Shown here: positions 6,188-53,215 of the stretch, piece by piece | Layout: each line of letters begins with the position of its first letter | Numbering within the stretch: the stretch's first letter is position 1 | DNA from: a virus | Taxonomy: Duplodnaviria; Heunggongvirae; Uroviricota; Caudoviricetes | Strand: one strand, 5' to 3' | Virus record (IMG/VR): IMGVR_UViG_3300029219_000144 | DNA length: 62,402 bases | Made by a program: the position numbers and the translations under genes | Notes under the pieces: generated by a model | Database searches by the model: none | What the model saw: only the letters and a program-made list of their open reading frames with translations | What the model was told of the DNA's origin: nothing

Positions 6188-6202
6188 AAAACAATTTGTT
6201 TT
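6188..6202. promoter_or_regulatory. 15-bp palindrome AAAACAATTTGTTTT (operator family copy 1)
   Basis: Perfect inverted repeat; first copy of a motif found at least 10 times upstream of start codons in the phage element. Confidence 0.5.
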
Positions 6203-6237
6203 CTACCTTTTGTTGATTGAGATAATAAGCCACATAA

Positions 6238-6253
6238 GAAAACAAATTGTTTA
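6238..6253. promoter_or_regulatory. Palindrome GAAAACAAATTGTTTA (operator family copy 2), abutting the RBS of the 6258 ORF
   Basis: Same palindrome 50 bp after copy 1, immediately followed by GGAG and ATG. Confidence 0.5.
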
Positions 6254-6257
6254 GGAG

Positions 6258-6506
6258 ATGAAGATGTTTGGAACAGCAAAAGAAATCATCGAGAAACTGA
6301 AAAACTATCCAGAAGACGAACCCTTACTCATGGTTATGTGGCACAAAGAAGATATTGCTGAAGTAAGGACAGATCTCACTGATGAACAATGCGTACAGGT
6401 GATGCAAAAAATCAGACAATACCATAACGCTGATGTCGGCGTTAATTGGGAGGTTATATCAACTACGGCGAATGAGTTGTTTCCGAACGGGGTGGTAAAA
6501 TGCTGA
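6258..6506 (+). CDS. hypothetical phage early protein (82 aa)
   Basis: ORF with AGGAG just upstream (second ATG at 6264 has better spacing); preceded by the operator palindrome. Confidence 0.5.
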   Translation: MKMFGTAKEIIEKLKNYPEDEPLLMVMWHKEDIAEVRTDLTDEQCVQVMQKIRQYHNADVGVNWEVISTTANELFPNGVVKC

Positions 6507-6688
6507 AACTCACCAAATTGTATAAGACGACAGTTAGTAGCCCTACCCTCGTTACACAGCATGACTCTGAGTGTCTACCAAATATCTGTTTCGAGCACCA
6601 TACGATCTCGGACTCAATTGGGTACAGAAACGGAGTATGGGGGAGTCAGGGGAGGGAAGAAAAGCTGCGTGATTACGGTGTCACATAG
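6500..6688 (+). CDS. hypothetical small protein (62 aa)
   Basis: ATG overlaps the stop of the upstream ORF (ATGCTGA), suggesting translational coupling; no motif recognised. Confidence 0.3.
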   Translation: MLKLTKLYKTTVSSPTLVTQHDSECLPNICFEHHTISDSIGYRNGVWGSQGREEKLRDYGVT

Positions 6689-6800
6689 CAAACCATCAAG
6701 AACATTCGAAAGGTGCTCGATGTAGGATTTGATGCGGTACAATTCCACCCTGACGCTGAAATAGACGATGGTCTGGAAAATTGGAAATTGTGAGGGATAA

Positions 6801-7199
6801 ATGAAATATGCACCATTGGCACTAATATTTTTTGTGCTTTCTGCTAATGCCACGCCAGTTGAAGAGCCTAACACTATCGTGTACCCACGATGCATGAAAA
6901 TAGATCCGGAAACACACAAGCAATTACCTGGTTACAATATTGTTATGGATATAGGGAATAAATTTAAAATCGTTTCCCCAAATGGGAATTCGGTGATATC
7001 CATCTCGCTTGCCCAAAGTGAAAAAGATAGGAACATGTTCGACGCCTCAGTCGGCGATGTTTACTTCTCTCGTTACCATGTTCAACCTGATGGGAACTTT
7101 CTATACTCAGCCTGGAGTGAAAAGGCGAAAGTTACAGTGCTGTGTAATGGTAAAAGCGGTGAGCGGCATTACGTTGACCCTATTCATTTCGAGAACTGA
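6801..7199 (+). CDS. hypothetical secreted protein (132 aa, N-terminal signal peptide)
   Basis: N-terminus MKYAPLALIFFVLSANA then TPVEEP looks like a Sec signal peptide; RBS GAGGGA 5 nt upstream. Confidence 0.55.
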   Translation: MKYAPLALIFFVLSANATPVEEPNTIVYPRCMKIDPETHKQLPGYNIVMDIGNKFKIVSPNGNSVISISLAQSEKDRNMFDASVGDVYFSRYHVQPDGNFLYSAWSEKAKVTVLCNGKSGERHYVDPIHFEN

Positions 7200-7329
7200 C
7201 TACACAAGTAAACAAATCAATCAGTTGATAATGGCGGTCACAATTTGATTCTTTTCTATAAGAATCCGTTGATCGCCACTACTCCCCTTCCATACCTGCA
7301 ATCACATCCTTAAATATCAATAAGTTATA

Positions 7330-8110
7330 GTTGTTTATACAATCAAGAAAACAACTGAATAACAGATCAACGAAACATCAACGCTTTCACCCGATTTGGT
7401 CTAAAAAATTGACGTTTTCACACATCACTGCTTATACCCGTAATTCTACGCAGCAGACAGCGCCACAGCGTCCAATTTTCACCACAGACGACCCAACACA
7501 CTACCAACAAAAACACACGCTCAAAATCGTTCCCGTTGCGTTACACAACCATATAAACAACTTATTTTAAGGCATAGCAAAACAACTAAATAACACACAT
7601 GCCATTCCCCAAAACAACCAACCTCTTTATGGCAGGCTACCGAAAAGACCCACCTCTTCTCCCCAGGCTACCGGACAACCAACCTAACTTTCACAGGCAA
7701 TCCGAAAACATTCATACGCGCGATACCCACGACACGCCATTACCCAAACAGCGAAGAAACACCAGAATCACTGAAACCCCAACGAAGCCTGTAACCGCAA
7801 GGTTTCTCTCAATCCCAAAAGACACGAAACATAACAATCACGGGAAACGCCATTACCCAATACACGAATAACTACAAAAGCCTTCACACACTCCAGACAA
7901 ACAACTCAAACACAATAACGAAAGGAATCGCCAACCTGCCATTACTCCATACACGGAGAAGAACAATCACCAAAACGACGAGAACACCCCATAGAAGAAC
8001 CACCGCAAAACGAACGAAACCACATACACCGACAGAGAGAACAACACGCCCAATTCACCAACAGAAATAGTCGCCGTATAGAACGTTCTGGAAGGAGTGA
8101 GCATTAACGC
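7330..8110 (+). other. ~0.8 kb non-coding tract with strong strand asymmetry (A+C-rich, G/T-poor on the + strand)
   Basis: Visibly few G and T over hundreds of bases (ccaacc, cacgaaac, caaaacgacga motifs); ORFs here lack RBS and have low-complexity translations. Confidence 0.6.
7607..7695 (+). repeat. Degenerate ~85-bp intergenic element, copy A (paired with 10785-10865)
   Basis: Shares aaaacaaccaacctctt .. caggctaccg .. acccacct .. ggctaccg .. caactttc with copy B by eye. Confidence 0.5.
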
Positions 8111-8420: not shown

Positions 8421-8746
8421 GTATAGCGAGAGGGAGAGTTGCGGCTACCCACCTGTAATGTGCGGGAAGAAGAGAGGCGCTCACGTGCAGGCGAACTTAC
8501 TTACCGCTGGATTCCCTCTGAATGCCCAGTTACAGCGTAATTGTGCCAGACAGCCAACGGGTCACAATCGATTTCAGTAGGTTTTCGGGGAGATGATTAT
8601 TCTGCCCACCAGCCACCTTCGGCCACTAAATCAGAATAATGTAAAAAGTGTTCTCGGTACTGAACCTGAAAACTCACTGCCAAAACCACATTCACCGGAA
8701 TAAAATCCTTTTTCGCCTGTGCGTTATTGCGATAATAACACCAACA

Positions 8747-8762
8747 AGAAAACATGTTGTTT
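8747..8762. promoter_or_regulatory. Palindrome GAAAACATGTTGTTTA (operator family)
   Basis: Motif lies 13 nt upstream of the ATG at 8775. Confidence 0.5.
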
Positions 8763-8774
8763 AAGGATTGCTTT

Positions 8775-9104: not shown

Positions 9105-9231
9105 ACCCAACCAAAGCCAGCAATGCTGGCTTAATTTCTCTATAGCCGCAGGGAGGAACCTGCATATCGATCATGCACCTGATCATTATGCTTTGTAGCC
9201 GTTTTCTTACTGGTATTATTTACGCCATTGA

Positions 9232-9247
9232 GAAAACAAGTTGTTTA
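9232..9247. promoter_or_regulatory. Palindrome GAAAACAAGTTGTTTA (operator family)
   Basis: Followed by CGGAG and the ATG at 9258. Confidence 0.5.
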
Positions 9248-9636: not shown

Positions 9637-9652
9637 GTAAGTACATACTTAC
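9637..9652. promoter_or_regulatory. Palindrome GTAAGTAcaTACTTAC (TAAGTA/TACTTA family)
   Basis: Perfect inverted repeat about 45 nt upstream of the 9696 start. Confidence 0.45.
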
Positions 9653-10136: not shown

Positions 10137-10151
10137 TAACAATTTGTTTTC
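10137..10151. promoter_or_regulatory. Palindrome ATAACAATTTGTTTT (operator family variant)
   Basis: Upstream of the ORF starting at 10167 or 10209. Confidence 0.45.
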
Positions 10152-10166
10152 TGCCTTATCAGATTT

Positions 10167-10583
10167 GTGAAAATGATTTCACTGAAGCAACTTAATAAGG
10201 AAACCATCATGGGACTTGATATCTATATCGAGACACAGCCTAAAAACGATCTGAATAACGAGGCATCCAGAAAGCAGGTTGCTTACTTCCGTAAGTTCAA
10301 TGCGCTCGTTGGGTGGATGGAGCGCAACGTAGGTGAAGTCGAAAATTGTGAGCTTTTAGAATTAACGATGAATGACATTTGTCTTCTGAAAGCTCATTTG
10401 ATGCACATAAACGAAAGCAATTGCGAAGAGTACTTGCCTACTCGGGAAGGTTTTTTCTTCGGCAGTCAGGAGTACGACGAAGGTTACTGGCATGACGTGG
10501 ATAAGCTGAAAAAACTTGTGGAAGACCTGATCAGGAACCACGACTTTCACAATAACAGACTGACCTTCTGCGCCTGGTGGTAA
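10167..10583 (+). CDS. hypothetical phage protein (138 aa; alternative start 10209)
   Basis: ORF; ATG at 10209 (MGLDIYIE) has AAGGA RBS and may be the real start. Confidence 0.5.
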   Translation: MKMISLKQLNKETIMGLDIYIETQPKNDLNNEASRKQVAYFRKFNALVGWMERNVGEVENCELLELTMNDICLLKAHLMHINESNCEEYLPTREGFFFGSQEYDEGYWHDVDKLKKLVEDLIRNHDFHNNRLTFCAWW

Positions 10584-10865: not shown

Positions 10866-10898
10866 CCTTATTCGTACAACGATAATTAACACCAATAA

Positions 10899-10913
10899 GA
10901 AAACAATTTGTTA
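10899..10913. promoter_or_regulatory. Palindrome GAAAACAATTTGTTA (operator family)
   Basis: 20 nt upstream of the ATG at 10934. Confidence 0.5.
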
Positions 10914-10933
10914 TTTACGATAAGGAATTAATC

Positions 10934-13469: not shown

Positions 13470-13778
13470 TTATTGAACAGACTCTACAGCCTTACGATTG
13501 GTGTCAAATAGCGCATCAACGAACTGTGCCGATGACTCGCTAGATTCGCAATCCAACATTGCCCGTTCTTCATTTGCCACTTTCTTACACAGTTCCACAT
13601 TCTCACCTATCGCTTTTCCTGCTTTTACGGCTGCCGAAAATTGATACATGCAAACTGATACATTCTGAGACGTTGAGCACACGTCATTCATCAGCGACTG
13701 AATGACAGGCTTATAGTCCATTGCATTTGCCGCAACTGAGCAAAGTAAAAATAATGGTGGTAACAATATCGATTTCAT
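13470..13778 (-). CDS. hypothetical secreted/periplasmic protein (102 aa, signal peptide)
   Basis: N-terminus MKSILLPPLFLLCSVAANA then MDYKP; several Cys residues. Confidence 0.55.
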   Translation of the reverse strand: MKSILLPPLFLLCSVAANAMDYKPVIQSLMNDVCSTSQNVSVCMYQFSAAVKAGKAIGENVELCKKVANEERAMLDCESSESSAQFVDALFDTNRKAVESVQ

Positions 13779-13781
13779 AAC

Positions 13782-14306
13782 TCAAAAAGGCAAAATTCGT
13801 TCAACCCAATCGAACAAAACAACTATTTTTCTACCGTTCTCGACACGTAGTGTAACCTGACAAGCATCTGCGCCTGCTGACACCCCCTCAATTTCACGGC
13901 CATCCGCCATGTACACCCTTATAGATTTGTTTGCTTTGTAGGCTTGGTTGCAAATTGCAAAAAAATCGCGGCGTGATGGCCGATTATCGACATAATCAGG
14001 GTGAACTGTTAGTCGACCTTTGAAATCGTGAGCGATACTGTCAACCACACCTGATTCAATTGTACTAATGCGTTCAAGTGGGAGCCTTATACGATTTTCT
14101 TTGTCAAAAGGGGCTGGGCAAAGGTCAACTTTGTTACGAGATGGCATGAGGCCATAAACGTACATGCAAAACGCCTGGCCATCTTCGAGAGTGACCCTTA
14201 CAGGAATTTGTTCTCTGCGCCAGAACATCAGTAGTTTTTCAACGTTAGTGTAATCTCGCGGCCAGAGTTCAGCTTGGATACCGTAGGTAATATCTTTGGT
14301 TGTCAT
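13782..14306 (-). CDS. hypothetical protein (174 aa; ORF-track start 14384 overlaps the upstream gene)
   Basis: Start set at MTTKDITYG, 4 nt after the upstream stop. Confidence 0.45.
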   Translation of the reverse strand: MTTKDITYGIQAELWPRDYTNVEKLLMFWRREQIPVRVTLEDGQAFCMYVYGLMPSRNKVDLCPAPFDKENRIRLPLERISTIESGVVDSIAHDFKGRLTVHPDYVDNRPSRRDFFAICNQAYKANKSIRVYMADGREIEGVSAGADACQVTLRVENGRKIVVLFDWVERILPF

Positions 14307-14310
14307 GTCA

Positions 14311-14775
14311 TCACAGAGTTGTTGGCAGAATGTCGATGTCACCAGAATTGCTGGTGAACACCCTGAACGCTTTTGTGTCTCCATTCTTCAGAGTCGTTTC
14401 TCGCTCTTGACGAGCGGGGTTTAGAGCACATAAACCTGCACCTTCAAGAGATGCACCCACAATTAATTCTCCGGCATTTAAATGGAAAGTCGCTTTTTCG
14501 CCTGTAGCCAGTTTTGCGACAGTTTCGCCGTTGATGAAAATGGAAGCATCACATCCAGCTCCTACAAAACCTGTGTCTCTCATTACCACCAACGTAGCTG
14601 GCGCTGCGCTTTGATACTTGAACACTTTGGCCTGCGGTGCTGGTTTGGCGTCATGGATTGATATTGGGCGTGATTGGCACGCGGTAAGCATCAACACTGG
14701 TAACGTTAGTAGAGGGAGAAGCGAGTATTTCATGATAGTTTTAGAACAGAAAGTGAACAGTATGGGAGACTTCAT
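14311..14775 (-). CDS. putative lipoprotein (154 aa)
   Basis: Hydrophobic N-terminal segment ending in lipobox LMLTAC; GGGAG RBS upstream of the 14775 start. Confidence 0.5.
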   Translation of the reverse strand: MKSPILFTFCSKTIMKYSLLPLLTLPVLMLTACQSRPISIHDAKPAPQAKVFKYQSAAPATLVVMRDTGFVGAGCDASIFINGETVAKLATGEKATFHLNAGELIVGASLEGAGLCALNPARQERETTLKNGDTKAFRVFTSNSGDIDILPTTL

Positions 14776-14801
14776 CTTTGTCTCCCTAATTGATAGCGTG
14801 A

Positions 14802-15080
14802 TTATTTTAATCTGCTTAATAGCGTTTCGAGATCTTCCTTTGTCATATTAGAGTTCTCATAGATACGCATGATTTTCTCACGAGTCTTAGCGGAAGCCCC
14901 GACAGAAGATATAACCTTGTCAAAGTCGGCCATTGTCAATTGTTCCAGAATGGTATTTATGACTTCAGCCTTAGACATTTTGATATTTTTTTCTTTTAGT
15001 TTCACTTGAAACTTTCCAAGTTTGTCATTGGCCTTATCAGACAATGCTACCTGACAATAAGTTGTTTTCTTTTCGCTCAT
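14802..15080 (-). CDS. hypothetical small protein (92 aa), possibly a ribbon-helix-helix-like DNA binder
   Basis: ORF directly downstream of the helicase gene; composition weakly suggests beta-strand then helices; not verified. Confidence 0.4.
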   Translation of the reverse strand: MSEKKTTYCQVALSDKANDKLGKFQVKLKEKNIKMSKAEVINTILEQLTMADFDKVISSVGASAKTREKIMRIYENSNMTKEDLETLLSRLK

Positions 15081-16687: not shown

Positions 16688-16706
16688 ATAAGTAAGTGAT
16701 TACTTA
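16688..16706. promoter_or_regulatory. Palindrome TAAGTAAGTGATTACTTAG in the divergent promoter region between the helicase and ParB-like genes
   Basis: AAGTA..TACTT inverted repeat between divergently oriented genes. Confidence 0.45.
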
Positions 16707-17405
16707 GTGGATTGTAGCAATAAAATGGATGTAAAAATCACGATTTTGCAGGTTGATGTTGCCAACCTTCGCCCGAATACCTGGAACACCAATTCGGTTG
16801 GTGCGCAGAATTTTGAAAAACTGAAAGGTTCTATCGAAAAATTGGGCTTTTTTAAGCCAATTTTGGCTCGTGAACTTGAAGATGGATTTTTTGAAATCCT
16901 CGGCGGCGAACATCGCTGGCGTGCTGCTATTGAGCAAGGAATTTCAACGGTTCCGGTGCTTTCTGTGGGCAAAATTAGCGATGTCGTAGCTAAACAGATG
17001 TCACTGGTGGACAACGAGCGATACGGTGAAGACGACCAAATCGCATTGCAACGCTTCATTGAAGAAATTCAGTCAGAACTTGACTATCAACTGTCTGAAA
17101 TCGCCCCGTATGACGACGAAATCTCGATGGTTTTAGCAAAAGAGGCGGCAATCGACCTTGAAGCACTGGAGGCGTTGTCTCGTGGTAGTGATGAGCCTGT
17201 CGATACCGACAAACGAGAGAAAACCGAACGTGTGGGGGCGGAACATCAGACCATGCGCTTCAAAGTAACTTTCGATGCGTCAGATCGTGTTGCAGAAACC
17301 ATAAAAAACATCATCAAAGAGCAGGCTATTAACACCGGTAATGAAATGGAGAACGCTGGTGAGGCTCTGGTGTGGCTGGTCGACTACTACAAGGAGCGTA
17401 TGTAA
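16707..17405 (+). CDS. ParB N-terminal domain (ParB/Srx-like nuclease fold) protein 1
   Basis: GGEHRWRAA motif typical of the ParB N-terminal domain; GTG start at 16707 or ATG at 16725. Confidence 0.65.
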   Translation: MDCSNKMDVKITILQVDVANLRPNTWNTNSVGAQNFEKLKGSIEKLGFFKPILARELEDGFFEILGGEHRWRAAIEQGISTVPVLSVGKISDVVAKQMSLVDNERYGEDDQIALQRFIEEIQSELDYQLSEIAPYDDEISMVLAKEAAIDLEALEALSRGSDEPVDTDKREKTERVGAEHQTMRFKVTFDASDRVAETIKNIIKEQAINTGNEMENAGEALVWLVDYYKERM

Positions 17406-19979: not shown

Positions 19980-20015
19980 CTTAGTAAGACATGCCAGACC
20001 TAATTAAACACCCCA

Positions 20016-20057
20016 GAAAACAAGTTGGTTAGCAGATGCAGTAAACAAGTTGTTTTA
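20016..20057. promoter_or_regulatory. Two adjacent operator-family palindromes (GAAAACAAGTTGGTT and TAAACAAGTTGTTTTA) upstream of terS
   Basis: Tandem copies about 45 nt before the ATG at 20096. Confidence 0.5.
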
Positions 20058-20095
20058 GAGCGCATGGACGCGCTCTGTGTGTTTTAGAGGGATCT

Positions 20096-21984: not shown

Positions 21985-22010
21985 GTAAGTAATTATCTAA
22001 GGTTATTCAA

Positions 22011-23585: not shown

Positions 23586-23606
23586 TAAGTAACAAAAGGA
23601 ATTTTT

Positions 23607-35475: not shown

Positions 35476-35557
35476 GTATCTAGATAAGTAAGTACTAATT
35501 TACTATCATTGTGGCGCTGACAGGATGTTAGCGCCTACTTATTTCAAGGATGAAACA

Positions 35558-42396: not shown

Positions 42397-42414
42397 TAAG
42401 TAGGTACATACTTA
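42397..42414. promoter_or_regulatory. Palindrome TAAGTAggtacaTACTTA upstream of the side tail fibre gene
   Basis: Perfect TAAGTA/TACTTA inverted repeat, followed by hairpin GGTGGGC..GCCCACC. Confidence 0.45.
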
Positions 42415-45400: not shown

Positions 45401-46616
45401 TGATGGATCGAACACATATTTCATGCTAACAGCATCAGGAGACACATTAGGTTCATGGAACGGTTTGCGACCAATTACAATTAATAATACCAGCGGTGCT
45501 GTATCAATTGGTAATGGACTAAATGTGACTGGTGGCGTAAATGGTAGTTTGAACGGTAATGCTTCAACAGCTACGAAGTTGCAAACAGCGAGAAACATCA
45601 ATGGTGTTAAGTTTGATGGCTCAGGCGATATCAACATTAATACATTGGTATCTCGTGGCCGAGTTACGGCGTTAAGCGGCTCTACTCAAGGCACTGCTGG
45701 CATTCAAATGTACGAGGCGTACAACAATAGCTACCCGACCACGTATGGCAACGTATTGCACATGAAAGGTGCGAGTGCTGCTGGTGAGGGCGAGTTGCTT
45801 ATTGGCTGGAGTGGTACGAGCGGTGCACATGCGCCAGTTTTCATTCGCTCACGAAGAGATACCACAGATGCGGCATGGTCAGCGTGGGCGCAGGTATATA
45901 CTGCTAAGGATTCAATCCCTGGTGTGAATACAACCGGTAATCAGAATACTACTGGTAATGCCGCAACAGCCACAAAATTGCAGACAGCAAGGAAAATTGC
46001 TGGTGTGGCGTTTGATGGCTCTGCCGATATTACTTTGACTGCGGCTAACCTTAATGCTTATACGAAAACAGAGGTAACAAACCTTCTAAGTTCCTATGCA
46101 AGCAGATCATCACTGACAGGCTATAGTGGCAACCTGGATATTATTGCTGAAACACTGGTTGTCAAATCAGGCGGTAGTGGAGGGTTTGCTATATGGGATA
46201 TTGGCACAACTACTAGCGGTGCCAATATGTACATTGATCCAAACCCTGGTATCAATACAGTTTGGCGTTCAACATCTTCAAGGCGCTATAAAAAGGATAT
46301 TGAAACATTACAAGATCGATATGCTGATGAACTTTTGTCATTAAGACCTGTTTGGTATCGTTCAATTTGTCGAGGTGACCGAAAGGATTGGGGGTATTAC
46401 GGCCTTATTGCTGAAGAGGTTGGTGAGATTGCCCCGCAATATGTCCATTGGCGTGAACCAACAAATAATGATTCTCCAGAAGATATTTCCTCAAATGGTA
46501 TGGTCGCTGAAGGGGTGATGTATGAGCGTTTGGTTGTACCACTCATTCATCATATTCAGCAATTGACCAAAAGGGTTGAGGAGCTTGAAACGAAGTTAAA
46601 TTCACCTAAAGAATAA
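42459..46616 (+). CDS. Side tail fibre (lambda Stf-like shaft, repeat region, C-terminal intramolecular chaperone domain)
   Basis: Ala/Ser-rich region (AESSKSAAATSAGAAKTSETNAAASQ...) near-identical to lambda Stf as recalled; GNAATATKLQTAR repeats; C-terminus has S74-like chaperone motifs (YGLIAEEV..). Confidence 0.8.
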   Translation: MWYREGTITFTQGSNTLVGAGTAWNVTANGVLPGMIVIGPDNKLYEIKRVTSDTNIVLSEPYTGETQSEVPCRIITTYEGDLTQFSARFTALMSRMSADSKSMRSWLTALDEVTIEREDGTEVTVKPLMQIVNEHNENVEWYKNNTDAIDAAGDKAREAAASAAAAAESANIAGEKASQASQSASAAESSKSAAATSAGAAKTSETNAAASQKSAATSASTATTKASEAATSARDAAASKEAAKSSETSAASSASNAASSATAAGNSAKAAKTSETNARSSETAAGQSASAAAGSKTAAASSASAASTSAGQASASATAAGKSAESAASSASTATTKAGEATEQASAAARSASAAKTSETNAKASETRAESSKTAAASSASSAASSASSASASKDEATRQASAAKGSATTASTKATEAAGSATAASQSKTAAESAATRAEAAADRAEEIAGAVAMEDASLTTKGVVKLSSAVDSTSESLAATPKAVKVVNDNANSRVPSNRKINGKALTADITLTPKDIGTLNSITMSFSGGAGWFKLATVTMPQASSIVYIALIGGAGYNVGSPHQAGISELVLRAGNGNPKGITGALWKRTAVGLTNFAWINTSGDTYDIYVEIGNYATRVNIHWDCTANATVSIYTSPTYSASKPSSVTDGVVYTMYSTHQKPTPLDIGALPTTGGTVSGPLSVTGGITGTLNGNASTATKLQTARSIGGVGFDGSANINLPGVNTTGNQNTTGNAATATKLQTARTIGGVSFDGTANINLPGVNTTGNQNTTGNAATATKLQTARTINGVSFDGSANISLSPANIGCPASPTGWLTTGSNGGAITTAQLVTLLQNNGAFNTKSWIARCAWAYANSATIPNSETGCGVIPLAGAVIEVFNNGSSSNNYTIRITTATTTSVSGALTNAEFIYVFNGTDYSPGWRRVYNTKNKPTASDVGALPLTGGTLSGGLTSSGEIISKYANGFRIAYGSFGFFIRNDGSNTYFMLTASGDTLGSWNGLRPITINNTSGAVSIGNGLNVTGGVNGSLNGNASTATKLQTARNINGVKFDGSGDININTLVSRGRVTALSGSTQGTAGIQMYEAYNNSYPTTYGNVLHMKGASAAGEGELLIGWSGTSGAHAPVFIRSRRDTTDAAWSAWAQVYTAKDSIPGVNTTGNQNTTGNAATATKLQTARKIAGVAFDGSADITLTAANLNAYTKTEVTNLLSSYASRSSLTGYSGNLDIIAETLVVKSGGSGGFAIWDIGTTTSGANMYIDPNPGINTVWRSTSSRRYKKDIETLQDRYADELLSLRPVWYRSICRGDRKDWGYYGLIAEEVGEIAPQYVHWREPTNNDSPEDISSNGMVAEGVMYERLVVPLIHHIQQLTKRVEELETKLNSPKE
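44540..44880 (+). repeat. Three tandem ~120-bp in-frame repeats inside the fibre gene (further diverged copies near 45540 and 45900)
   Basis: Repeated NINLPGVNTTGNQNTTGNAATATKLQTAR.IGGV.FDG with synonymous differences. Confidence 0.6.
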
Positions 46617-46627
46617 ACAACTTCAAT

Positions 46628-46652
46628 CGGGGCTGGAACTAAACCAGCCCCT
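46628..46652 (+). terminator. Hairpin after the tail fibre gene
   Basis: GGGGCTGG aactaaa CCAGCCCC; weak U-tract. Confidence 0.45.
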
Positions 46653-46676
46653 GCTTAAAAGTATAAGGATATATTT

Positions 46677-46931
46677 ATGAGCTATGGTGCACAGGTATGG
46701 TCGCCATCAAGACAGGAGATGGTCGATGCGTTGGCCCCTGTTTATTACCTCGATTATTTTACTCCCTCTGGTTCTGGAAGTAGAACATATGAGGTTGAGG
46801 CGGGATTGGGAATCGACTATTACATAATGGACGTAACCAATGGGAAATACACAAGTCTTACGGTTTCTGGAAATACCATTTCATGGTCTGGAGCTAGTGG
46901 CAATTTAAACATATTGGTTTTTCAAAAATAA
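46677..46931 (+). CDS. hypothetical protein (84 aa)
   Basis: ORF in an AT-rich block after the fibre gene. Confidence 0.45.
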   Translation: MSYGAQVWSPSRQEMVDALAPVYYLDYFTPSGSGSRTYEVEAGLGIDYYIMDVTNGKYTSLTVSGNTISWSGASGNLNILVFQK

Positions 46932-47539
46932 TGTACGGAAGCAAGATATATCGATCTGACGGGAAGGTCTGGATGTCTCCTTCTTTGTCTCCTATCGTCT
47001 TTCAGAGAAAGCAGGTTGTTTCTTTGTCTGGCGGGACAGAGTTTAACACCCAAATATCTCCAGATCGTTCACCGATGATTTTTGTTGCCTATTCGAAAGC
47101 TGTTTCATTAATAGCCAACAGAATAGTGCGTAACAACCAGGTGATTTACAGTTTCGGAGGTCAGGGTAGCGACTCTAGTGCCACGATATACGTATTTTCG
47201 AAAGGTATAGCCAAAAAAGAAACTTGGGGCATGAGTTTTTTCAATGCACAAGGGGAGGAAATCTATAATACGGCAAATATCCCACTTTCATTTACCTTTC
47301 TTAATAATACGGAGTGGAACAGCTCTGGAGGGCATGTTTTTGATTACCCACCAGCGATAATCCCAACATATGCGAATGTGTTCGCTGTTCCAGTACCGGG
47401 CGGAGCCATGACAATGGTTTATGGATATGCGGCATATGGAAATACTGTTAGCTCGATATTCGTAAACCAACTTAATGGCGGCCATAGTTTTAGCGTAAAT
47501 GGCAGAGTACCGGTAATAAATAGAAATCTGTATAACTGA
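46931..47539 (+). CDS. hypothetical protein (202 aa)
   Basis: Start overlaps the upstream stop; AT-rich; no motif recognised. Confidence 0.45.
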   Translation: MYGSKIYRSDGKVWMSPSLSPIVFQRKQVVSLSGGTEFNTQISPDRSPMIFVAYSKAVSLIANRIVRNNQVIYSFGGQGSDSSATIYVFSKGIAKKETWGMSFFNAQGEEIYNTANIPLSFTFLNNTEWNSSGGHVFDYPPAIIPTYANVFAVPVPGGAMTMVYGYAAYGNTVSSIFVNQLNGGHSFSVNGRVPVINRNLYN

Positions 47540-47546
47540 TGAGTAA

Positions 47547-47780
47547 ATGATGAAAAGATTATTTCTAACAATAGCTGTTGTTCTCTCTCTTACTGGCTGC
47601 CAGAAATTGCCGACACCTATATGTTACGGTGAGGCTATCATTGGTGGACAGGAGACAGTCATACCCATATATGCTGTTAAAAAAGTGAACGACTATACCT
47701 TATACAAAGCGGGTAGCATCTATAACTGGCGATGGGTAGGAGTAGGTGCTTTCTCATCAGTCCGTTGCAATGTTGAATGA
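47547..47780 (+). CDS. small lipoprotein (77 aa), possible superinfection-exclusion type
   Basis: Signal peptide with lipobox LTGC (MMKRLFLTIAVVLSLTGCQ); sits between tail fibre and lysis genes. Confidence 0.5.
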   Translation: MMKRLFLTIAVVLSLTGCQKLPTPICYGEAIIGGQETVIPIYAVKKVNDYTLYKAGSIYNWRWVGVGAFSSVRCNVE

Positions 47781-49312: not shown

Positions 49313-49834
49313 TTATTCTTCGAACAATTTTTCGATAGATTTTGTAGGATAGAACAAAGAACGCTCGTTGTTACCAACCAGCTGGATAAAGCCCAAACTT
49401 TTATAAAACGCCTTGGCTTTGTCATTTAACGCCTCAACGAAAAGTCCATGAATGCCTACAGCAAGAGATGCATTGTACACAACGCGCATTGCATGTGTTA
49501 CAAGCATTGAGCCAAATCCTTGACCTTGAAGGGACTTGTCCAAAGCCAGCCTACCCAAAGTAACACTTGGAACATTCCGATAAGGTACCTTCTTTTGCTG
49601 GCTTCTTGAAGGTAAGGACTCCTTTTCAAAGCAGCTGCCTGACAAAGTGTAATACCCTAACACTTTTGGTCTGTCTTCTTTCGTGAAAAGCACATAAGCG
49701 CGAAGAATTTTTCCCTCATGCTGCCTTTTTAAGTGGTTGGTTAAAAAGGCATTTAGTGATTCTTCACCGCAATCAAAACCATTCAAATCATAATCTTTCT
49801 CTCCAGAGAAAATTTCTATCTTTATATTATCCAC
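49313..49834 (-). CDS. GNAT-family acetyltransferase toxin (TacT/KacT-like)
   Basis: 173-aa GNAT fold with motif-A-like QGQGFGSMLV; immediately downstream of a DUF1778-type antitoxin gene. Confidence 0.7.
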   Translation of the reverse strand: MDNIKIEIFSGEKDYDLNGFDCGEESLNAFLTNHLKRQHEGKILRAYVLFTKEDRPKVLGYYTLSGSCFEKESLPSRSQQKKVPYRNVPSVTLGRLALDKSLQGQGFGSMLVTHAMRVVYNASLAVGIHGLFVEALNDKAKAFYKSLGFIQLVGNNERSLFYPTKSIEKLFEE

Positions 49835-49841
49835 GAGTAAA

Positions 49842-50111
49842 CTACTCCATGCTTTTCAGACGATCAGCAGCTCGTTTCAGCTTGTCGTTCGGTGCCGGAG
49901 GATTGCTTATAGCGTCCATAACCAGATTCCAGGATTCTTCATTCAGAACTAGTCTACGGTGTTGCTCTATAACTTTCACGGCACGTTCAGATGCACTGCT
50001 AACCATAAACTGAGTAATGCTCTGGTTAGACATTGCGGCAGCTTCCTCGATGATGCTTTTATCGTCATCGGTTAATCTCAAATCGATGCGCTGCTTTTTT
50101 AGTGCTGACAT
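49842..50111 (-). CDS. DUF1778-family antitoxin (TacA/KacA-like)
   Basis: 89-aa protein from MSALKKQRIDLRLTDDDKSIIEEAA, RBS AGGAGG 5 nt upstream; ORF-track start 50150 is an upstream extension. Confidence 0.65.
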   Translation of the reverse strand: MSALKKQRIDLRLTDDDKSIIEEAAAMSNQSITQFMVSSASERAVKVIEQHRRLVLNEESWNLVMDAISNPPAPNDKLKRAADRLKSME

Positions 50112-50379
50112 GTATTCCTCCTGATGGCCGTGATGTAGGAAGGCCATCAATCTCCTCTGTTCAAACTGAGTTTTCGACTCAAAAATTACTTTAAAAGGCT
50201 ATAGCCCATTACGTGTGCATTATCAAATTGTGTACGGCATATCACCGTACTTGTAATATAGAGGTCATTGTTACTTTTTTCAACAGACAAATACAAGCTA
50301 TGATTGCCAATTGTTAATCACAACCTACCATTTAACCTTTACACCGCAGCCGTAGGCATTTAGGCTATATCACATATAA

Positions 50380-50394
50380 GAAAACAAGTTGTTT
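50380..50394. promoter_or_regulatory. Palindrome GAAAACAAGTTGTTT (operator family) upstream of parA
   Basis: 35 nt before the ATG at 50430. Confidence 0.5.
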
Positions 50395-50429
50395 CAGACG
50401 ATAATTATATACGCAAAGGGAACTCTCCA

Positions 50430-51098
50430 ATGACCAAGATCTTTGTGGTTGGCGGCACAAAGGGCGGGCCTGGCAAATCCACCGTTGCCCAGCAAATTGC
50501 CGTTTGCCTGAAAGTCAAAAAGAAGAAGAAGGTTTATATTACCGATATAGATATTCAGCGCACGACAACGAGCTGGTGTGAAGACCGTCGACAGAACGAA
50601 GACCTTGAGCTGATTCCTTTTGCATACGTTCAGGATGACATCATTAAGCACCTAAAATCGCTTCAGGGTAGAGCTGAGTTTGTAGTGGTAGATGCTGGTG
50701 GCTTCGACTCCGAAATTCAGCGACAAGCGATGCTGATGGCTGACGTTATCATTATCCCGCTGCGTCCTAAGCGTCGTGATTTGAAATCTTTACGTGACAT
50801 CGATCCTATTATCGACAATGTTCGCAATGTAAACGATAAAGTGAAGGTCCGCGCGGTCATGAACCAGTGCCCGGCTTTGCCATCACAAGTGTCTCGCATT
50901 CTGGCGGCTAAAGAGATTGTCGAGACGTTTGGCATCGAGTCTGCGCCAGTCAATCTATATAACCGCAACGTCTACGATGATGCGGAAGAGTCTGGTCGTT
51001 CTATCTTCGAAATGACCGGTAGCGAGCGCGACAAAAAGGCGGAAGCCGAGTTTGAAGAATTTGTAGATTATCTGTTGAGTCTGGAGGAAGAAGAATAA
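50430..51098 (+). CDS. ParA/ParF-type partition ATPase (small, type Ib-like)
   Basis: Deviant Walker A GGTKGGPGKST in a 222-aa protein. Confidence 0.75.
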   Translation: MTKIFVVGGTKGGPGKSTVAQQIAVCLKVKKKKKVYITDIDIQRTTTSWCEDRRQNEDLELIPFAYVQDDIIKHLKSLQGRAEFVVVDAGGFDSEIQRQAMLMADVIIIPLRPKRRDLKSLRDIDPIIDNVRNVNDKVKVRAVMNQCPALPSQVSRILAAKEIVETFGIESAPVNLYNRNVYDDAEESGRSIFEMTGSERDKKAEAEFEEFVDYLLSLEEEE

Positions 51099-51457
51099 TG
51101 TCCATGAAAATGGGTGACCTAGCAAAGCGCAAAGAGCCTGATGCACCGGCTAAGAACACAACTCCTTTGCGCCAACCAGTCAGACCACAGGGACGCCCGA
51201 CTCGTGGCAAAGAGAAAATTAAAAGCCGCACAATGTCACTGGAAGACGAATACTTCGAACTGCTGGAGATGATGAAGTTCATCCCTCGCTTCGAGAAATT
51301 CACCCGTTCTGACGTGATTCGCGCAGCCATTTTCCATCTGGCAGAGAAGTCACCGCAGGAAATCGAGGACATCGTGAAACTTAACGAGGCAATCACAGCT
51401 GCCGATGTCACGATGCGTACCGATGAAATTAAACGAGAGTTGATGAAGAAAGGTTGA
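51098..51457 (+). CDS. small partition partner protein (ParG/RHH-like, 119 aa)
   Basis: Start overlaps the parA stop; basic N-terminal tail and helix-rich C-terminus. Confidence 0.5.
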   Translation: MSMKMGDLAKRKEPDAPAKNTTPLRQPVRPQGRPTRGKEKIKSRTMSLEDEYFELLEMMKFIPRFEKFTRSDVIRAAIFHLAEKSPQEIEDIVKLNEAITAADVTMRTDEIKRELMKKG

Positions 51458-51501
51458 TAAGAGAAGGCGTGATTAGACGCCTTCTCTTAAAAGGTATATT
51501 T

Positions 51502-52257
51502 ATGCTTTACAAATATGTTGGAAGTAGCGTCCCGGAAGACACAATAAAGTATTTAAAGTATTACTTAGAAGATGGGAAAATTCGAGCAACTCGTCCGAAT
51601 GATTTCAACGATCCTGCCGAGTTTAAAGTTAATTTTGATTATGATGCTGATATAGACGCCATTAAGAAAAGATTTTTTGAGCTTTGGCCTAATCATCACA
51701 ATGATGAATTTGAACGCTGGTTATTGAGTCAAACAGAACATAGTCGCAGTTTTGATAACTATATGATTAGAACAACTTTTCTGCAGTGTCGGGGAGTTAT
51801 TTGTTTGACAAAAAGACCAGATAATTATCTTATGTGGTCGCATTATGCGCATTCTCACTCTGGTTTTTGCATCGGATTTGATGATGGTTTTATAAATGCG
51901 TTTGATGATGGTTTTTTTGTTCGCGGTGAGGTCAAATATTCCTCTGATGTTCCGGTTGTAAATTTTTTTACCGACTCAGATAAAGAGATTGCAGCGGCTC
52001 TTTGCCTAAATAAAAGCGATGTCTGGGAATATGAAGAGGAGGTTAGAATCGTAACCGAGAATTGTGGCGTGAAATTATTTGATAAATCCTTAATTAAGGA
52101 AATAACAATAGGTTGTAAGGCTAGCAGTCAACTTCAAAATTATGTTCATCAACTATTTGATTCAGGTATCGAAATCTACAAAATGAAGTGCCCTCCAGGA
52201 TCGTATAAGCTGGAAAAAATAAGATTAGAGAAAGATACTGATTTTCTTGGATACTAG
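51502..52257 (+). CDS. DUF2971-like protein (252 aa from MLYKY; alternative start 51454)
   Basis: N-terminal LYKY, RPNDFNDPAEF and later SHYAHSHSGFCIGF motifs resemble the DUF2971 family as recalled; AT-rich gene. Confidence 0.5.
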   Translation: MLYKYVGSSVPEDTIKYLKYYLEDGKIRATRPNDFNDPAEFKVNFDYDADIDAIKKRFFELWPNHHNDEFERWLLSQTEHSRSFDNYMIRTTFLQCRGVICLTKRPDNYLMWSHYAHSHSGFCIGFDDGFINAFDDGFFVRGEVKYSSDVPVVNFFTDSDKEIAAALCLNKSDVWEYEEEVRIVTENCGVKLFDKSLIKEITIGCKASSQLQNYVHQLFDSGIEIYKMKCPPGSYKLEKIRLEKDTDFLGY

Positions 52258-52279
52258 TATTGGTAGTATCAACAATTAT

Positions 52280-52336
52280 GACCTGCTTCTGTATATAATA
52301 AGTAAATTAGTATTTATATATATACAGAAGCAGGTC
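52280..52336. repeat. 57-bp palindromic element (copy 2), GACCTGCTTCTGTATATA..TATATACAGAAGCAGGTC, followed by TTTT
   Basis: Arms nearly identical to copy 1 at 19923-19979; core contains TAATAAGTAAATTAGTA. Confidence 0.65.
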
Positions 52337-52450
52337 TTTTAAAGACACCCACCAGAACAAGTCCCTTCCGTTTCCACTTCCAAAAACTGCCACCAGTCGC
52401 TATCATCCGCTCATTGTGATAAGTAAGTAACTACCTACCAGGTGAGCCAC

Positions 52451-53191
52451 ATGAGCCAAATCTTTTTCGATACCATCGACAACGACCAGTACGACTTCAT
52501 GACAGAGTGGAATACCGCTGTTATGGACAAGTGGGTTGCTGAAAACATTGGTTTGTCGCGCTGCAAAGACGAGGCTGAACTGTTTGAGACGAAGTGGTTT
52601 GATTACCGCGATATGCATCCTCTCATGGCCACCTGTCTGTTTACGGAGGCATACAAACGTCAGTACTCAAATATCATGCTGACGCACGGTCGTGAACACT
52701 TTGAAACAGCTCCGTTCACCACCGGGTTAAAACGCTTGCCTTATCAGGAGTTGTCGACTGCTAATAAAACGTCGCTATGGAAAGCACGCCAGTTTGCGGA
52801 TCGCTATTGCTGCTCATACGACTACTTTATCTCCACTGTTCTTTCCGCAGCTGCACGACGTCTGTGGGACAAGCTGCCTCGCCCACAGCATTTGTGGCAG
52901 CCAGAACTGATTGAGATATTTGAAGAGAAATTAGCCAGACGCGCAACAACCCGTCTGGATGACTCTCTGGTTAGCTTTAAGCATATGGGAGACATGCAGT
53001 TCAACCCGATTCAGGAAAGCTATTTTGAGTGGATTCTGGAGCGTTTGCGCACCATCCCTCGCAGTAAGCGCATACGCGCAATTTTCTCCGCTATCTGGCT
53101 AATGGAAATCGTTCCAGAGCGCCTTATTTCCGCCCACTTTCCAGAAGAACTGGAAGAAGCACGGCGGTTTATTGATCCCCTATCTAATTAA
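52451..53191 (+). CDS. hypothetical replication-module protein (246 aa)
   Basis: ORF directly upstream of the DnaB-like helicase; RBS AGGTGA. Confidence 0.5.
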   Translation: MSQIFFDTIDNDQYDFMTEWNTAVMDKWVAENIGLSRCKDEAELFETKWFDYRDMHPLMATCLFTEAYKRQYSNIMLTHGREHFETAPFTTGLKRLPYQELSTANKTSLWKARQFADRYCCSYDYFISTVLSAAARRLWDKLPRPQHLWQPELIEIFEEKLARRATTRLDDSLVSFKHMGDMQFNPIQESYFEWILERLRTIPRSKRIRAIFSAIWLMEIVPERLISAHFPEELEEARRFIDPLSN

Positions 53192-53200
53192 CTAATACTA

Positions 53201-53215
53201 GAAAACAATTTGTTT
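53201..53215. promoter_or_regulatory. Palindrome GAAAACAATTTGTTT (operator family) upstream of the helicase gene
   Basis: 20 nt before the ATG at 53235. Confidence 0.5.

What the first reader, a model, noticed from the sequence alone, without database searches (positions are those of the whole stretch)
6188..53215. Regulon-like family of a 15-bp palindrome GAAAACAAnTTGTTT immediately upstream of at least nine genes
Near-identical inverted repeats occur at 6188, 6238, 8747, 9232, 10137, 10899, 20016, 20042, 50380 and 53201, each 10-45 nt upstream of a start codon: early small ORFs, terS, parA and the DnaB-like helicase. Position so close to the RBS suggests an operator overlapping the transcription start or 5'UTR, bound by a dimeric regulator, rather than a sigma70 promoter element. 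No cI-like repressor was identified, so the cognate factor is unknown.
Basis: seen in the sequence. Interest (0 to 1): 0.62.

Follow-up and report, generated by a model that had tools for sequence, protein, structure and literature searches.

The report
Dispersed palindromic operator in a phage-plasmid
A 13-base palindrome sits at about 20 promoters of a widespread family of phage-plasmids and most likely lets one plasmid-encoded repressor hold early, replication, partition and packaging genes silent; the family of sites is real and apparently undescribed, but it belongs to a known kind of system.

Summary
The core palindrome AAACAAnTTGTTT, extended on one side to AGAAAACAA, occurs 11 times (at most 1 mismatch) in the window. 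The 15-mer gives 23 strand-hits against 1.3 expected. All sites lie in non-coding DNA upstream of genes.

The window is an SSU5-like phage-plasmid, 98.7% identical to E. coli phage Cyrano/pLF82. Complete relatives from Escherichia, Salmonella and Klebsiella carry 17-20 copies at orthologous promoters. There the palindrome, a -10-like hexamer and the ribosome site are the conserved islands in diverged spacers.

Sites take two positions: 11-14 nt downstream of a GATAAT-type -10, or over the -35 region. The RNA hairpin is negligible, deviations are one-sided, and the element occurs in both orientations. I therefore read it as a DNA operator for a symmetric repressor. Genes behind it are at background in a published lysogen transcriptome.

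The cI-like HTH repressor of relatives lies outside the window. It most likely owns a second dispersed palindrome, TAAGTAnnTACTTA, found in passing.

The best candidate reader of the first motif is the invariant ribbon-helix-helix-like protein encoded after parA (51098-51457). Its own promoter carries the motif. This assignment is inference (about 40%); no binding has been shown.

The parts
6189..6204 (.). Motif-1 site, class B (AAACAATTTGTTT+TCT). The long arm faces the promoter to its right and overlaps the -35 region of the promoter whose -10 is GATAAT at 6221-6226.
   Evidence: The 19-nt spacing to the -10 matches other class B sites.
6237..6253 (+). Motif-1 site, class A (AGA+AAACAAATTGTTT+A). 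It lies 13 nt after GATAAT (6221-6226) and 11 nt before the ATG at 6264. Its centre is 51 bp from the 6189 site.
7555..7567 (.). The orthologous site is a perfect palindrome in SSU5 and Klebsiella. The promoter context is unclear.
8747..8763 (+). Motif-1 site, class A. GATAAT lies at 8731-8736 and the ATG at 8775. The longer ORF start at 8754 lies inside the motif and is probably not used.
9231..9247 (+). Motif-1 site, class A. TATTAT lies at 9214-9219 and the ATG at 9258.
10137..10152 (.). Motif-1 site, class B. It follows a hairpin. TG-GAAAAT (10169-10174) lies 19 nt downstream and the ATG at 10209.
10898..10914 (+). Motif-1 site, class A. TTGACG-15-GATAAT is present (hexamer at 10881-10886) and the ATG is at 10934.
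20015..20031 (+). Motif-1 site, distal of two before terS. A TAATTA -10-like hexamer lies at 20001-20006.
20040..20056 (+). Motif-1 site, proximal of two before terS. It abuts the terminator-like hairpin.
20056..20077 (+). Terminator-like hairpin plus T-run between the operators and the terS ribosome site. It is conserved in SSU5 and Klebsiella.
50379..50395 (+). Motif-1 site in the parA promoter (TTTACA-17-TAGGCT, hexamer at 50361-50366). It lies 35 nt before the parA ATG.
50430..51098 (+). Small ParA ATPase of 222 aa with no N-terminal DNA-binding domain.
   Evidence: Pfam and NCBIfam
51098..51457 (+). Leading candidate reader of motif 1. This 119-aa protein sits after parA. It has a basic disordered tail and then a strand-helix-helix pattern (IKSRTMS..EDE / FTRSDVIRAAI), invariant in all homologues.
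   Evidence: Expressed in the lysogen. The assignment is inference.
53200..53216 (+). Motif-1 site, class A, 19 nt before the ATG of the DnaB-like helicase (53235).

Best explanation
Motif 1 is a double-stranded DNA operator. Its core is AAACAAnTTGTTT, with one arm extended to AGAAAACAA on the side facing the -10 hexamer.

It sits at about 20 sigma-70-type promoters of SSU5-like phage-plasmids, 11 of them in this window. Each intergenic cassette has this order: the hairpin of the previous gene, whose descending arm doubles as a weak -35 (TTGACG/TTTACG); 15-16 nt; GATAAT; 11-14 nt; the palindrome; the ribosome site; ATG.

A symmetric protein of the element (a dimer or a dimer of dimers) binds the palindrome. 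Binding occurs either at about +5 to +20 (class A) or over the -35 (class B). This stops initiation or promoter escape. It keeps the following silent or throttled while the element lives as a plasmid: the early small genes, the helicase-primase operon, cobT, nrdB, tciA, the terS-headed packaging operon and, partially, parA.

What is shown: the sites, their enrichment, their positions relative to hexamers and start codons, their conservation, and the silence of the downstream genes in a lysogen.

What is inferred: the transcription starts, the binding and the direction of regulation.

The most likely reader (about 0.4, inference only) is the 119-aa ribbon-helix-helix-like protein encoded after the small ParA (51098-51457). 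It would then be an autoregulator of the par operon whose operator has spread to the lytic promoters.
For: Enrichment:
- 23 hits against 1.33 expected.
- 15 of 18 Cyrano sites lie in the 13% intergenic DNA, p = 3e-11.

Conservation:
- 20 sites in SSU5, 17 in Klebsiella pJN2-26 and 6 in what remains of pMT1, at orthologous promoters.
- Nearly all of 80 IMG/VR loci keep the motif; the two without a hit are short fragments. This holds down to 70% helicase identity.
- In upstream alignments the palindrome, the -10 and the SD are the best-conserved columns.

Anatomy:
- Across 42 class A and 19 class B non-redundant instances, the two classes share only the palindrome.
- The long arm always faces the -10, so the same element is used in both orientations.

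A DNA site, not an RNA element:
- Hairpin energies are -0.7 to 0 kcal/mol with z-scores near 0.
- Deviations from consensus are one-sided.
- Every position of both arms is equally conserved and the centre is free.
- No Rfam family matches.

Lysogen RNA-seq of Cyrano (PMC9928086 S1 Table; median 9.8):
- Genes right after sites read TerS 7.1, CobT 7.8, hyp58 5.7, NrdB 12.9, TciA 7.0, hyp87 7.1, Eae 6.3, hyp101 7.5, hyp108 5.7 and hyp110 6.7.
- ParA reads 49.8.

Candidate reader (the protein at 51098-51457):
- It is present in 69 of 69 loci that include the parA region, at 90-100% identity, and in 797 PLSDB plasmids.
- Its strand and second-helix blocks are invariant even in 48%-identical alleles whose plasmids keep the motif.
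- It is expressed in the lysogen at 89.
- Its own promoter carries the motif.
- It has sub-threshold RHH hits: aCcr1 at E 2e-4, and Pfam RHH_1 at E 0.011 for the Moellerella homologue.
- In Moellerella the parA promoter has two inverted AAGAAAAC half-sites.
Against: General weaknesses:
- No transcription start, footprint or binding datum exists.
- The sigma-70 consensus scanner does not call these promoters, because the -35 is poor. They could therefore be silent by default rather than repressed.
- Most genes of the element are at background in the lysogen, so silence of the motif genes does not discriminate.

Against the candidate reader:
- The RHH fold is not established. The AlphaFold monomer has pLDDT 63, Foldseek and PDB profile searches found nothing, and hhalign against remembered ParG, omega, CopG and Arc sequences was insignificant.
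- Moellerella has the protein with nearly the same DNA-reading residues but no genome-wide motif.
- No repeat array typical of a type Ib centromere flanks parA.
- pMT1 keeps six sites without the protein, though it is too young for decay.
Confidence: 0.65

Rival explanations
1. The motif works in RNA. It is a 5'UTR element next to the ribosome site, bound by the element's FljA-like protein (13782-14306, minus strand), which blocks translation as Salmonella FljA does on fliC mRNA.
For: - The protein is a strong member of Pfam Flag1_repress (2.5e-84).
- Its model is a tandem Hfq/Sm fold (pLDDT 80; Foldseek top hits are all Hfq, rmsd 1.2 A).
- FljA is reported to act post-transcriptionally on fliC mRNA (PMC2652032).
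- The gene is kept in phage-plasmids of Klebsiella. That host lacks flagella (my own knowledge, not tested here), which would imply an internal target.
- It is absent from Moellerella and Acinetobacter relatives, which also lack motif 1.
- Class A sites touch the SD, and the leader is A-rich followed by U-rich.
Against: - Class B sites (19 of 61 instances) lie upstream of promoters and carry the long arm on the opposite strand. The element therefore works in both orientations, which RNA recognition does not explain.
- Every base of both arms is conserved with exact complementarity, unlike degenerate Hfq-type motifs.
- The hairpin is negligible.
- The protein is hyper-polymorphic (79 clusters, 52-98% identity; 35-38% in some loci) while the motif consensus stays identical.
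- It is barely expressed in the lysogen, at 18.
Confidence: 0.12
2. The reader is the Xre-type HTH 'putative repressor' of relatives (CYRAN_45, next to the integrase, just beyond the 3' end of this window), acting as master lysogeny repressor on motif 1.
For: - It is expressed in the lysogen at 96.
- It is present in 865 PLSDB plasmids of the family.
- It is the only classical cI-like protein of the element.
Against: - Its own upstream region carries a different perfect palindrome, GGTAAGT(G/A)CTTACC, in Cyrano, Klebsiella and pMT1. This belongs to the second dispersed family, TAAGTAnnTACTTA / TAGGTAAGTACTTACCTA.
- The Acinetobacter relative has a homologue with a nearly identical recognition helix. 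Its 27-copy palindrome GTCAGTACTGAC is one base per half-site from motif 2, and it has no motif 1.
- The protein is only 56-66% identical between lineages that share an invariant motif 1.
- No motif-1 site lies in its divergent promoter region.
Confidence: 0.1
3. The motif is read by a regulator made only during lytic growth. This could be a shut-off repressor or an activator, for example the 71-aa or 88-aa winged-helix-like proteins at 59933-60148 and 19632-19898. The promoters would then be silent in the lysogen for other reasons.
For: - The promoters have weak -35 elements.
- The 71-aa protein has the same phyletic pattern as the motif: absent from Moellerella and Acinetobacter.
- The 88-aa protein is encoded directly upstream of the double site at terS and is well conserved.
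Against: - A site centred at about +12 leaves no room for activation, and the SD follows within 11-20 nt.
- The recognition helix of the 88-aa protein is conserved in Acinetobacter, where the motif is absent.
- The 71-aa protein is only 62-70% identical between lineages with an invariant motif.
- Neither has the motif at its own promoter.
Confidence: 0.08
4. A host transcription factor of Enterobacteriaceae reads the motif.
For: The motif is restricted to relatives living in Enterobacteriaceae and Yersinia. It is invariant across them, as a host factor's site would be.
Against: - I know of no enterobacterial factor with this site.
- No paper in the held library contains the motif strings.
- One host factor would have to suit Escherichia, Klebsiella, Salmonella, Enterobacter and Yersinia alike.
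- Host chromosomes were not scanned.
Confidence: 0.04
5. No dedicated factor exists. The palindrome is a hitch-hiking part of a promoter cassette that spread by duplication or recombination, like the promoter-stem-loop cassettes of T4-type phages, or it is simply a favoured initial transcribed sequence.
For: Class A cassettes share about 45 bp beyond the palindrome, namely a -35-like hairpin arm, GATAAT and AACACCAACAAG, which suggests common descent.
Against: - Within cassettes the palindrome is better conserved than its flanks, and orthologous sites stay intact where spacers diverge.
- Two unrelated cassette types share only the palindrome.
- Perfect two-fold symmetry with a free central base is not expected of an initial transcribed sequence.
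Confidence: 0.05

Closest known systems
pSM19035 omega repressor (ribbon-helix-helix, partner of the small ParA delta) and TP228 ParG; from my own knowledge of these systems
   Same: - A small ParA without a DNA-binding domain is followed by a small protein with a flexible basic tail and a strand-helix-helix pattern.
- That protein's site lies in the par promoter, giving autoregulation.
- Omega also controls several other promoters of its plasmid through short 7-bp subsites, which may be inverted. This compares with two 7-8-bp arms here.
   Different: - Omega and ParG sites are arrays of many repeats that double as centromeres. Here parA has one palindrome and no array.
- The roughly 20 targets here are phage early, replication and packaging promoters.
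- The RHH fold and binding of the candidate are not shown; hits are sub-threshold only.
Phage-plasmid P1 C1 repressor with many dispersed operators; from my own knowledge
   Same: A plasmid-prophage whose lytic genes are scattered in many transcription units, each carrying the same operator at its promoter.
   Different: - C1 operators are asymmetric 17-mers, whereas this site is a palindrome.
- There is no sequence or protein similarity.
- This element carries two separate dispersed motifs.
Mycobacteriophage L5/L1 gp71 'stoperators' (multiple asymmetric operators are mentioned in PMC1934351, seen; the rest is from my own knowledge)
   Same: Dozens of copies of a 13-bp site lie in short intergenic spaces. 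Many lie downstream of transcription starts and are oriented with respect to transcription.
   Different: - Stoperators are asymmetric and block elongation.
- Here the core is symmetric and tied at fixed spacing to a -10 hexamer, which points to control of initiation or escape.
RK2 KorB/KorA global regulon; from my own knowledge
   Same: A 13-bp palindrome with 6-nt arms and one central base is repeated at about a dozen promoters. It is read by a partition-related protein that coordinates replication, partition and transfer genes.
   Different: - KorB is a ParB-family HTH protein.
- The two ParB_N proteins here (16707-18073) are silent in the lysogen.
- They are conserved in the Acinetobacter relative, which lacks the motif.
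lac O1-type operators centred near +11
   Same: The position of class A sites relative to the -10 hexamer.
   Different: The family of regulator is unrelated, and lac is a single-operon system.

Membership tests
Repressor operator at a sigma-70 promoter | Fixed position relative to -10/-35 hexamers, overlapping the RNA polymerase footprint | tested here: met
   Class A sites lie 11-14 nt after a GATAAT, TATTAT or TAATTA hexamer. In class B, the -10 lies 19 nt after the arm. The hexamers themselves are inferred promoters, and the consensus scanner does not call them.
Repressor operator at a sigma-70 promoter | Two-fold symmetry with independently conserved half-sites | tested here: met
   Both arms are equally informative, the centre is free, and deviations are one-sided.
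Repressor operator at a sigma-70 promoter | A protein binds the site and lowers transcription | not testable with these tools
   The only indirect evidence is that downstream genes are at background in the lysogen RNA-seq.
Type Ib partition module with RHH centromere-binding autoregulator (ParG/omega type) | Small ParA lacking an N-terminal DNA-binding domain | tested here: met
   The protein is 222 aa with only ATPase domains. It matches NCBIfam ParA_partition at 1.9e-33, below that model's cut-off.
Type Ib partition module with RHH centromere-binding autoregulator (ParG/omega type) | The downstream small protein has a ribbon-helix-helix fold | tested here: inconclusive
   In favour: the sequence pattern, invariant blocks, a helix pattern in a low-confidence model, and sub-threshold aCcr1 and RHH_1 hits. 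Against: nothing from PDB, Foldseek or hhalign.
Type Ib partition module with RHH centromere-binding autoregulator (ParG/omega type) | Array of iterated short repeats (centromere) beside the operon | tested here: not met
   There is a single palindrome at the parA promoter and no repeat array in 49800-53300.
RNA hairpin, riboswitch or known RNA family | Stable structure, compensatory changes, or an Rfam match | tested here: not met
   Energies are -0.7 to 0 kcal/mol with z near 0. There are no compensatory changes. Rfam finds only a tRNA.
Intrinsic terminator | G+C-rich stem followed directly by a T-run | tested here: not met
   The palindrome itself is A+T-rich and is not called. Separate hairpins precede class B sites, and one follows the terS sites.
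cI/Xre-type immunity repressor with its operators | Operators in the repressor's own divergent promoter region, co-varying with the repressor | tested here: not met
   The region upstream of CYRAN_45 holds GGTAAGTnCTTACC (motif-2 type), not motif 1. Motif 1 does not vary while this repressor does.
KorB/ParB-type global operator | A ParB-family reader co-distributed with the site and expressed in the plasmid state | tested here: not met
   The ParB_N proteins are at background in the lysogen. They are present in Acinetobacter and Moellerella relatives that lack motif 1.

The most novel reading that the evidence does not exclude
In that case, a ParG/omega-like centromere-binding autoregulator has had its operator copied onto about 20 early, replication and packaging promoters of a phage. 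The same protein would then segregate the plasmid-prophage and hold its lytic programme down, alongside a separate cI-like repressor that owns a second dispersed palindrome. The dispersed sites might also serve as a scattered centromere. Moellerella relatives would be the ancestral state, with the protein and half-sites only at parA.
Probability: 0.3. Interest if true: 0.75.

Novelty: new member of a known kind. Interest (0 to 1): 0.5.

Why it matters
SSU5-like phage-plasmids are very common. Their marker helicase is found in over 800 enterobacterial plasmids of PLSDB, in clinical Escherichia, Klebsiella, Enterobacter and Salmonella and in Yersinia pestis pMT1. They carry resistance genes (PMC9600943, seen).

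Their lysis-lysogeny control is essentially undescribed. No paper in the held library mentions either motif.

Two invariant, dispersed operators give a direct handle on that control:
- They predict the transcription units.
- They offer precise targets for EMSA, ChIP and reporter work.
- They could be used to derepress or cure these elements.

Tried and rejected
Led nowhere:
- The sigma-70 consensus scan did not call the cassette promoters.
- Pfam, PHROGs and NCBIfam gave nothing for the small early proteins behind the sites.
- pMT1 lacks the 119-aa protein yet keeps six sites. It is evolutionarily too young for decay, so this is uninformative.
- The key FljA papers and a 2026 phage-plasmid preprint are not held.

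Considered and rejected as reader of motif 1:
- The 92-aa RHH-like protein at 14802-15080. It is expressed in the lysogen, but its putative DNA-facing strand residues differ between lineages with an identical motif, and it is 35-100% identical overall.
- The FljA-like tandem-Hfq protein (see rivals).
- CYRAN_45 (see rivals).
- The 88-aa winged-helix-like protein and the two ParB_N proteins. They are silent in the lysogen and conserved where the motif is absent.
- The 366-aa 'MinD-like' protein, which is an Mrp/NUBPL homologue. It appears captured together with metG; in E. coli the two genes are neighbours (my own knowledge).
- The S24 peptidase, which is UmuD-like and has no DNA-binding domain.
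- The first gene behind the double operator (6264-6506). It is replaced by unrelated sequence in Cyrano while the operators stay.

The 2-mismatch hits at 13817, 15053 and 47007 were rejected as sites. They lie in coding DNA, and the one at 15053 arises from codons that are not conserved in SSU5.

Full report
**What the window is.** Megablast of 20000-30000 finds Escherichia phage Cyrano (pLF82 of E. coli LF82) at 98.7% identity, Salmonella phage SSU5 at 81.6% and Klebsiella phage-plasmids at about 78%. The window is colinear with Cyrano across the record ends. Window 19963 corresponds to Cyrano position 1. Several segments are replaced: 6257-7210, 13472-14827, 46098-47779, 55801-58364 and 61439 to the end. 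The window is therefore about 58% of an SSU5-like phage-plasmid. It runs from a host-derived mrp-metG block through an array of small early genes, the structural operon, lysis genes, parA, helicase-primase and ligase, to a tRNA-Asn.

**The observation.** GAAAACAAnTTGTTT with up to 2 mismatches gives 23 strand-hits against 1.33 expected. The symmetric core is AAACAAnTTGTTT. In the complete Cyrano genome there are 18 such sites, and 15 lie in the 13% annotated as intergenic (p = 3e-11). Two of the other three overlap annotated starts that are probably wrong. One such ATG lies inside the motif, and a better start with a ribosome site follows.

**Anatomy.** I pooled the window, Cyrano, SSU5 and Klebsiella pJN2-26, which gave 42 non-redundant class A and 19 class B instances.
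- Class A reads TAAT(T/A)A - aCcaA.a - AGAAAACAAnTTGTTTA, followed by the ribosome site and ATG.
- The -10-like hexamer (GATAAT, TATTAT or TAATTA) ends 11-14 nt before the core.
- Further upstream many cassettes carry TTGACG or TTTACG, 15-16 nt from the hexamer. This is the descending arm plus T-run of the previous gene's hairpin.
- With a start 6-8 nt after the -10 (general knowledge of sigma-70 promoters), the core would span roughly +5 to +20. This step is inferred.
- Class B reads hairpin - ccttAAACAAnTTGTTTTCTgCCTTTT - about 10 nt - TG.GAAAAT or GATAAT. The arm ends 19 nt before a -10, often an extended one, so the palindrome covers the -35 region.
- The extended arm AGAAAAC always faces the -10 hexamer. 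It is on the top strand in class A and on the bottom strand in class B.
- The promoter at 6221-6226 has both kinds of site, with centres 51 bp apart. terS has two sites 25 bp apart, followed by a terminator-like hairpin.

**Conservation.**
- SSU5 has 20 sites, Klebsiella pJN2-26 has 17 and pMT1 has 6 in what it retains. All lie at orthologous promoters: terS, parA, helicase, cobT, nrdB, tciA/ant, the DUF4942 gene and the early array.
- Nearly all of 80 IMG/VR loci around the UvsW-like helicase keep the motif; the two without a hit are short fragments. This includes the loci with only 70-72% helicase identity.
- In alignments of 30-46 distinct upstream regions of terS, parA, the helicase and two early genes, the palindrome, the -10 and the ribosome site are the best-conserved columns.
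- This pattern indicates purifying selection, not recent duplication.

**DNA or RNA.**
- As RNA the motif folds at -0.7 to 0 kcal/mol, no better than shuffles.
- Deviations from consensus are never compensated.
- All positions of both arms are equally informative and the centre is free.
- The same asymmetric element occurs in both orientations relative to transcription.
- Rfam finds only the tRNA.
- Together these points favour a double-stranded site read by a symmetric protein.

**Expression.** The published LF82 lysogen transcriptome lists every Cyrano gene (PMC9928086 S1 Table). The median is 9.8. The genes directly behind motif-1 sites read 5.7-12.9, with hyp111 at 25.5 and the helicase at 21. 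ParA reads 49.8. This is consistent with repression in the plasmid state. It is not discriminating, because most genes of the element are at background.

**A second motif, and what it says about the cI-like repressor.** A palindrome census found a second family, TAAGTAnnTACTTA.
- The window has nine loci with at most 1 mismatch (9638, 16693, 23489, 28984, 35485, 42397, 52424, 57014, 60596), against none in 20 shuffles.
- Cyrano has 14 sites, 12 of them intergenic.
- In Klebsiella the motif reads TAGGTAAGTACTTACCTA.
- A perfect GGTAAGT(G/A)CTTACC lies about 35 nt upstream of the Xre-type repressor gene CYRAN_45 in Cyrano, Klebsiella and pMT1.
- A distant relative from Acinetobacter baumannii (UvsW 42% identical) has one dominant palindrome, (GAT)CAGTCAGTACTGACT, in 27 copies. 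It lies between the -35 and -10 of its promoters.
- Its core GTCAGTACTGAC differs from GTAAGTACTTAC by one base per half-site. Its CYRAN_45 homologue has a nearly identical recognition helix.
- The cI-like repressor therefore most likely owns motif 2, not motif 1.

**Who reads motif 1.** The motif is invariant across all enterobacterial lineages. It is absent from the Acinetobacter relative and from a complete Moellerella relative. I ranked candidates on five criteria: conservation of the DNA-reading parts, expression in the lysogen, presence of the motif at their own promoter, phyletic pattern and fold.
- The 92-aa RHH-like protein (14802-15080) and the FljA-like protein (13782-14306) diverge to 35-38% while the motif consensus stays AGAAAACAAnTTGTTTA. 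The FljA-like family is hyper-polymorphic even within E. coli.
- The 88-aa winged-helix-like protein and the two ParB_N proteins are silent in the lysogen and conserved where the motif is absent.
- The 119-aa protein after parA (51098-51457) fits best.
  - It is in 797 plasmids at mostly 90-100% identity and in 69 of 69 loci that include the parA region.
  - Its blocks RPQGRPTRGK, I(K/Q)SRTMS.EDE and FTRSDVIRAAI are invariant in a 12-sequence alignment spanning 48-100% identity.
  - The divergent 49% allele of pKSB1_9A_3 keeps these blocks, and its plasmid keeps the motif at the parA and helicase promoters.
  - It is expressed in the lysogen at 89, and its operon's promoter carries the motif.
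  - Its layout of a disordered basic tail, a short strand and two helices, placed after a small ParA, is that of ParG/omega-type proteins.
- The fold is supported only by sub-threshold hits (aCcr1 RHH E 2e-4; RHH_1 E 0.011 for the Moellerella homologue) and a low-confidence model.
- Moellerella has the protein with almost the same strand (IKSRTVSMEDEY) but no genome-wide motif. Its parA promoter has only two inverted AAGAAAAC half-sites 39 bp apart.
- This fits a scenario in which a par autoregulator's site spread to other promoters in the enterobacterial clade. It also shows that the protein does not by itself predict the regulon.
- I put this assignment at about 0.4.

**The RNA rival.** The FljA-like protein models as two Hfq/Sm domains (pLDDT 80; Foldseek hits are all Hfq, rmsd 1.2 A), and FljA is reported to act on fliC mRNA after transcription. 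It is retained in Klebsiella elements; that host lacks flagella (my own knowledge), so the protein probably has a target inside the element. Its phyletic pattern matches motif 1. Against it stand the orientation argument, the base-by-base symmetry, the class B positions and its polymorphism. I keep it at about 0.12.

**Comparison with known systems.**
- Functionally the element resembles the dispersed operators of P1 C1 and the L5 stoperators, which place many copies at scattered promoters.
- It also resembles lac O1 in the +11 position.
- It fails two defining features of these families: the asymmetry of C1 and gp71 sites, and the repeat arrays of type Ib centromeres.
- No paper in the held library contains either motif or describes an operator of SSU5, pHCM2 or pMT1.

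**Verdict.**
- This is a real, strongly conserved family of palindromic sites. It is best explained as the operator of a repressor encoded by the phage-plasmid.
- It is a new member of a known kind of system.

Noticed in passing
window 9638-9651, 16693-16706, 23489-23502, 28984-28997, 35485-35498, 42397-42414, 52424-52437, 57014-57027, 60596-60609: A second dispersed palindrome, TAAGTAnnTACTTA (TAGGTAAGTACTTACCTA in Klebsiella). The window has nine loci against none in shuffles, and all but one are intergenic. They lie ahead of the ParB operon, tail genes, the fibre gene and others. A related perfect palindrome sits upstream of the cI-like repressor gene of relatives, so this is probably that repressor's operator set.
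   Followed up: partly
L170-L172 (Acinetobacter baumannii pPB364_1, NZ_CP040426.1): This distant relative carries 27 copies of (GAT)CAGTCAGTACTGACT placed between the -35 and -10 of its promoters. The core is one base per half-site from motif 2. One-palindrome-many-promoters control therefore seems ancestral to the whole SSU5 supercommunity.
   Followed up: partly
window 13782-14306 (minus strand): The FljA-like protein (Pfam Flag1_repress) models as a tandem Hfq/Sm fold. It is hyper-polymorphic among otherwise near-identical phage-plasmids and is retained in Klebsiella elements. It sits in a variable block with a 92-aa RHH-like protein and a lipoprotein. Its target is unknown.
   Followed up: partly
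window 20056-20077: A terminator-like hairpin with T-run lies between the terS promoter and operators and the terS ribosome site. It is conserved in SSU5, Klebsiella and pMT1. It hints at antitermination control of the packaging and structural operon.
   Followed up: no
window 122-6104: An accessory block: an HsdM-type methylase (122-1684, minus strand), a DNA polymerase III theta homologue (2036-2287), a UmuD-like S24 peptidase (2386-2775), and an mrp/apbC-metG pair (2813-3913 minus strand, 4071-6104). The last two are neighbours in E. coli (my own knowledge) and so look captured from a host chromosome. In Cyrano the Mrp-like and S24 genes are expressed in the lysogen.
   Followed up: no
window 6257-7210, 13472-14827, 46098-47779, 55801-58364, 61439-62402: These segments have no close match in Cyrano although the flanks are 96-99% identical. 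The first replaces the gene right behind the double operator, while the operators themselves are kept.
   Followed up: no
window 52280-52336: An 18-bp perfect inverted repeat with a 21-nt A+T-rich loop and a T-run lies after the gene ending at 52257. It is most likely an ordinary intrinsic terminator.
   Followed up: partly
L176-L178 (Moellerella wisconsensis pW18-2-b, NZ_CP093251.1): This relative of intermediate distance lacks motif 1 genome-wide and keeps only degenerate motif-2-like sites. Its parA promoter has two inverted AAGAAAAC half-sites 39 bp apart.
   Followed up: partly
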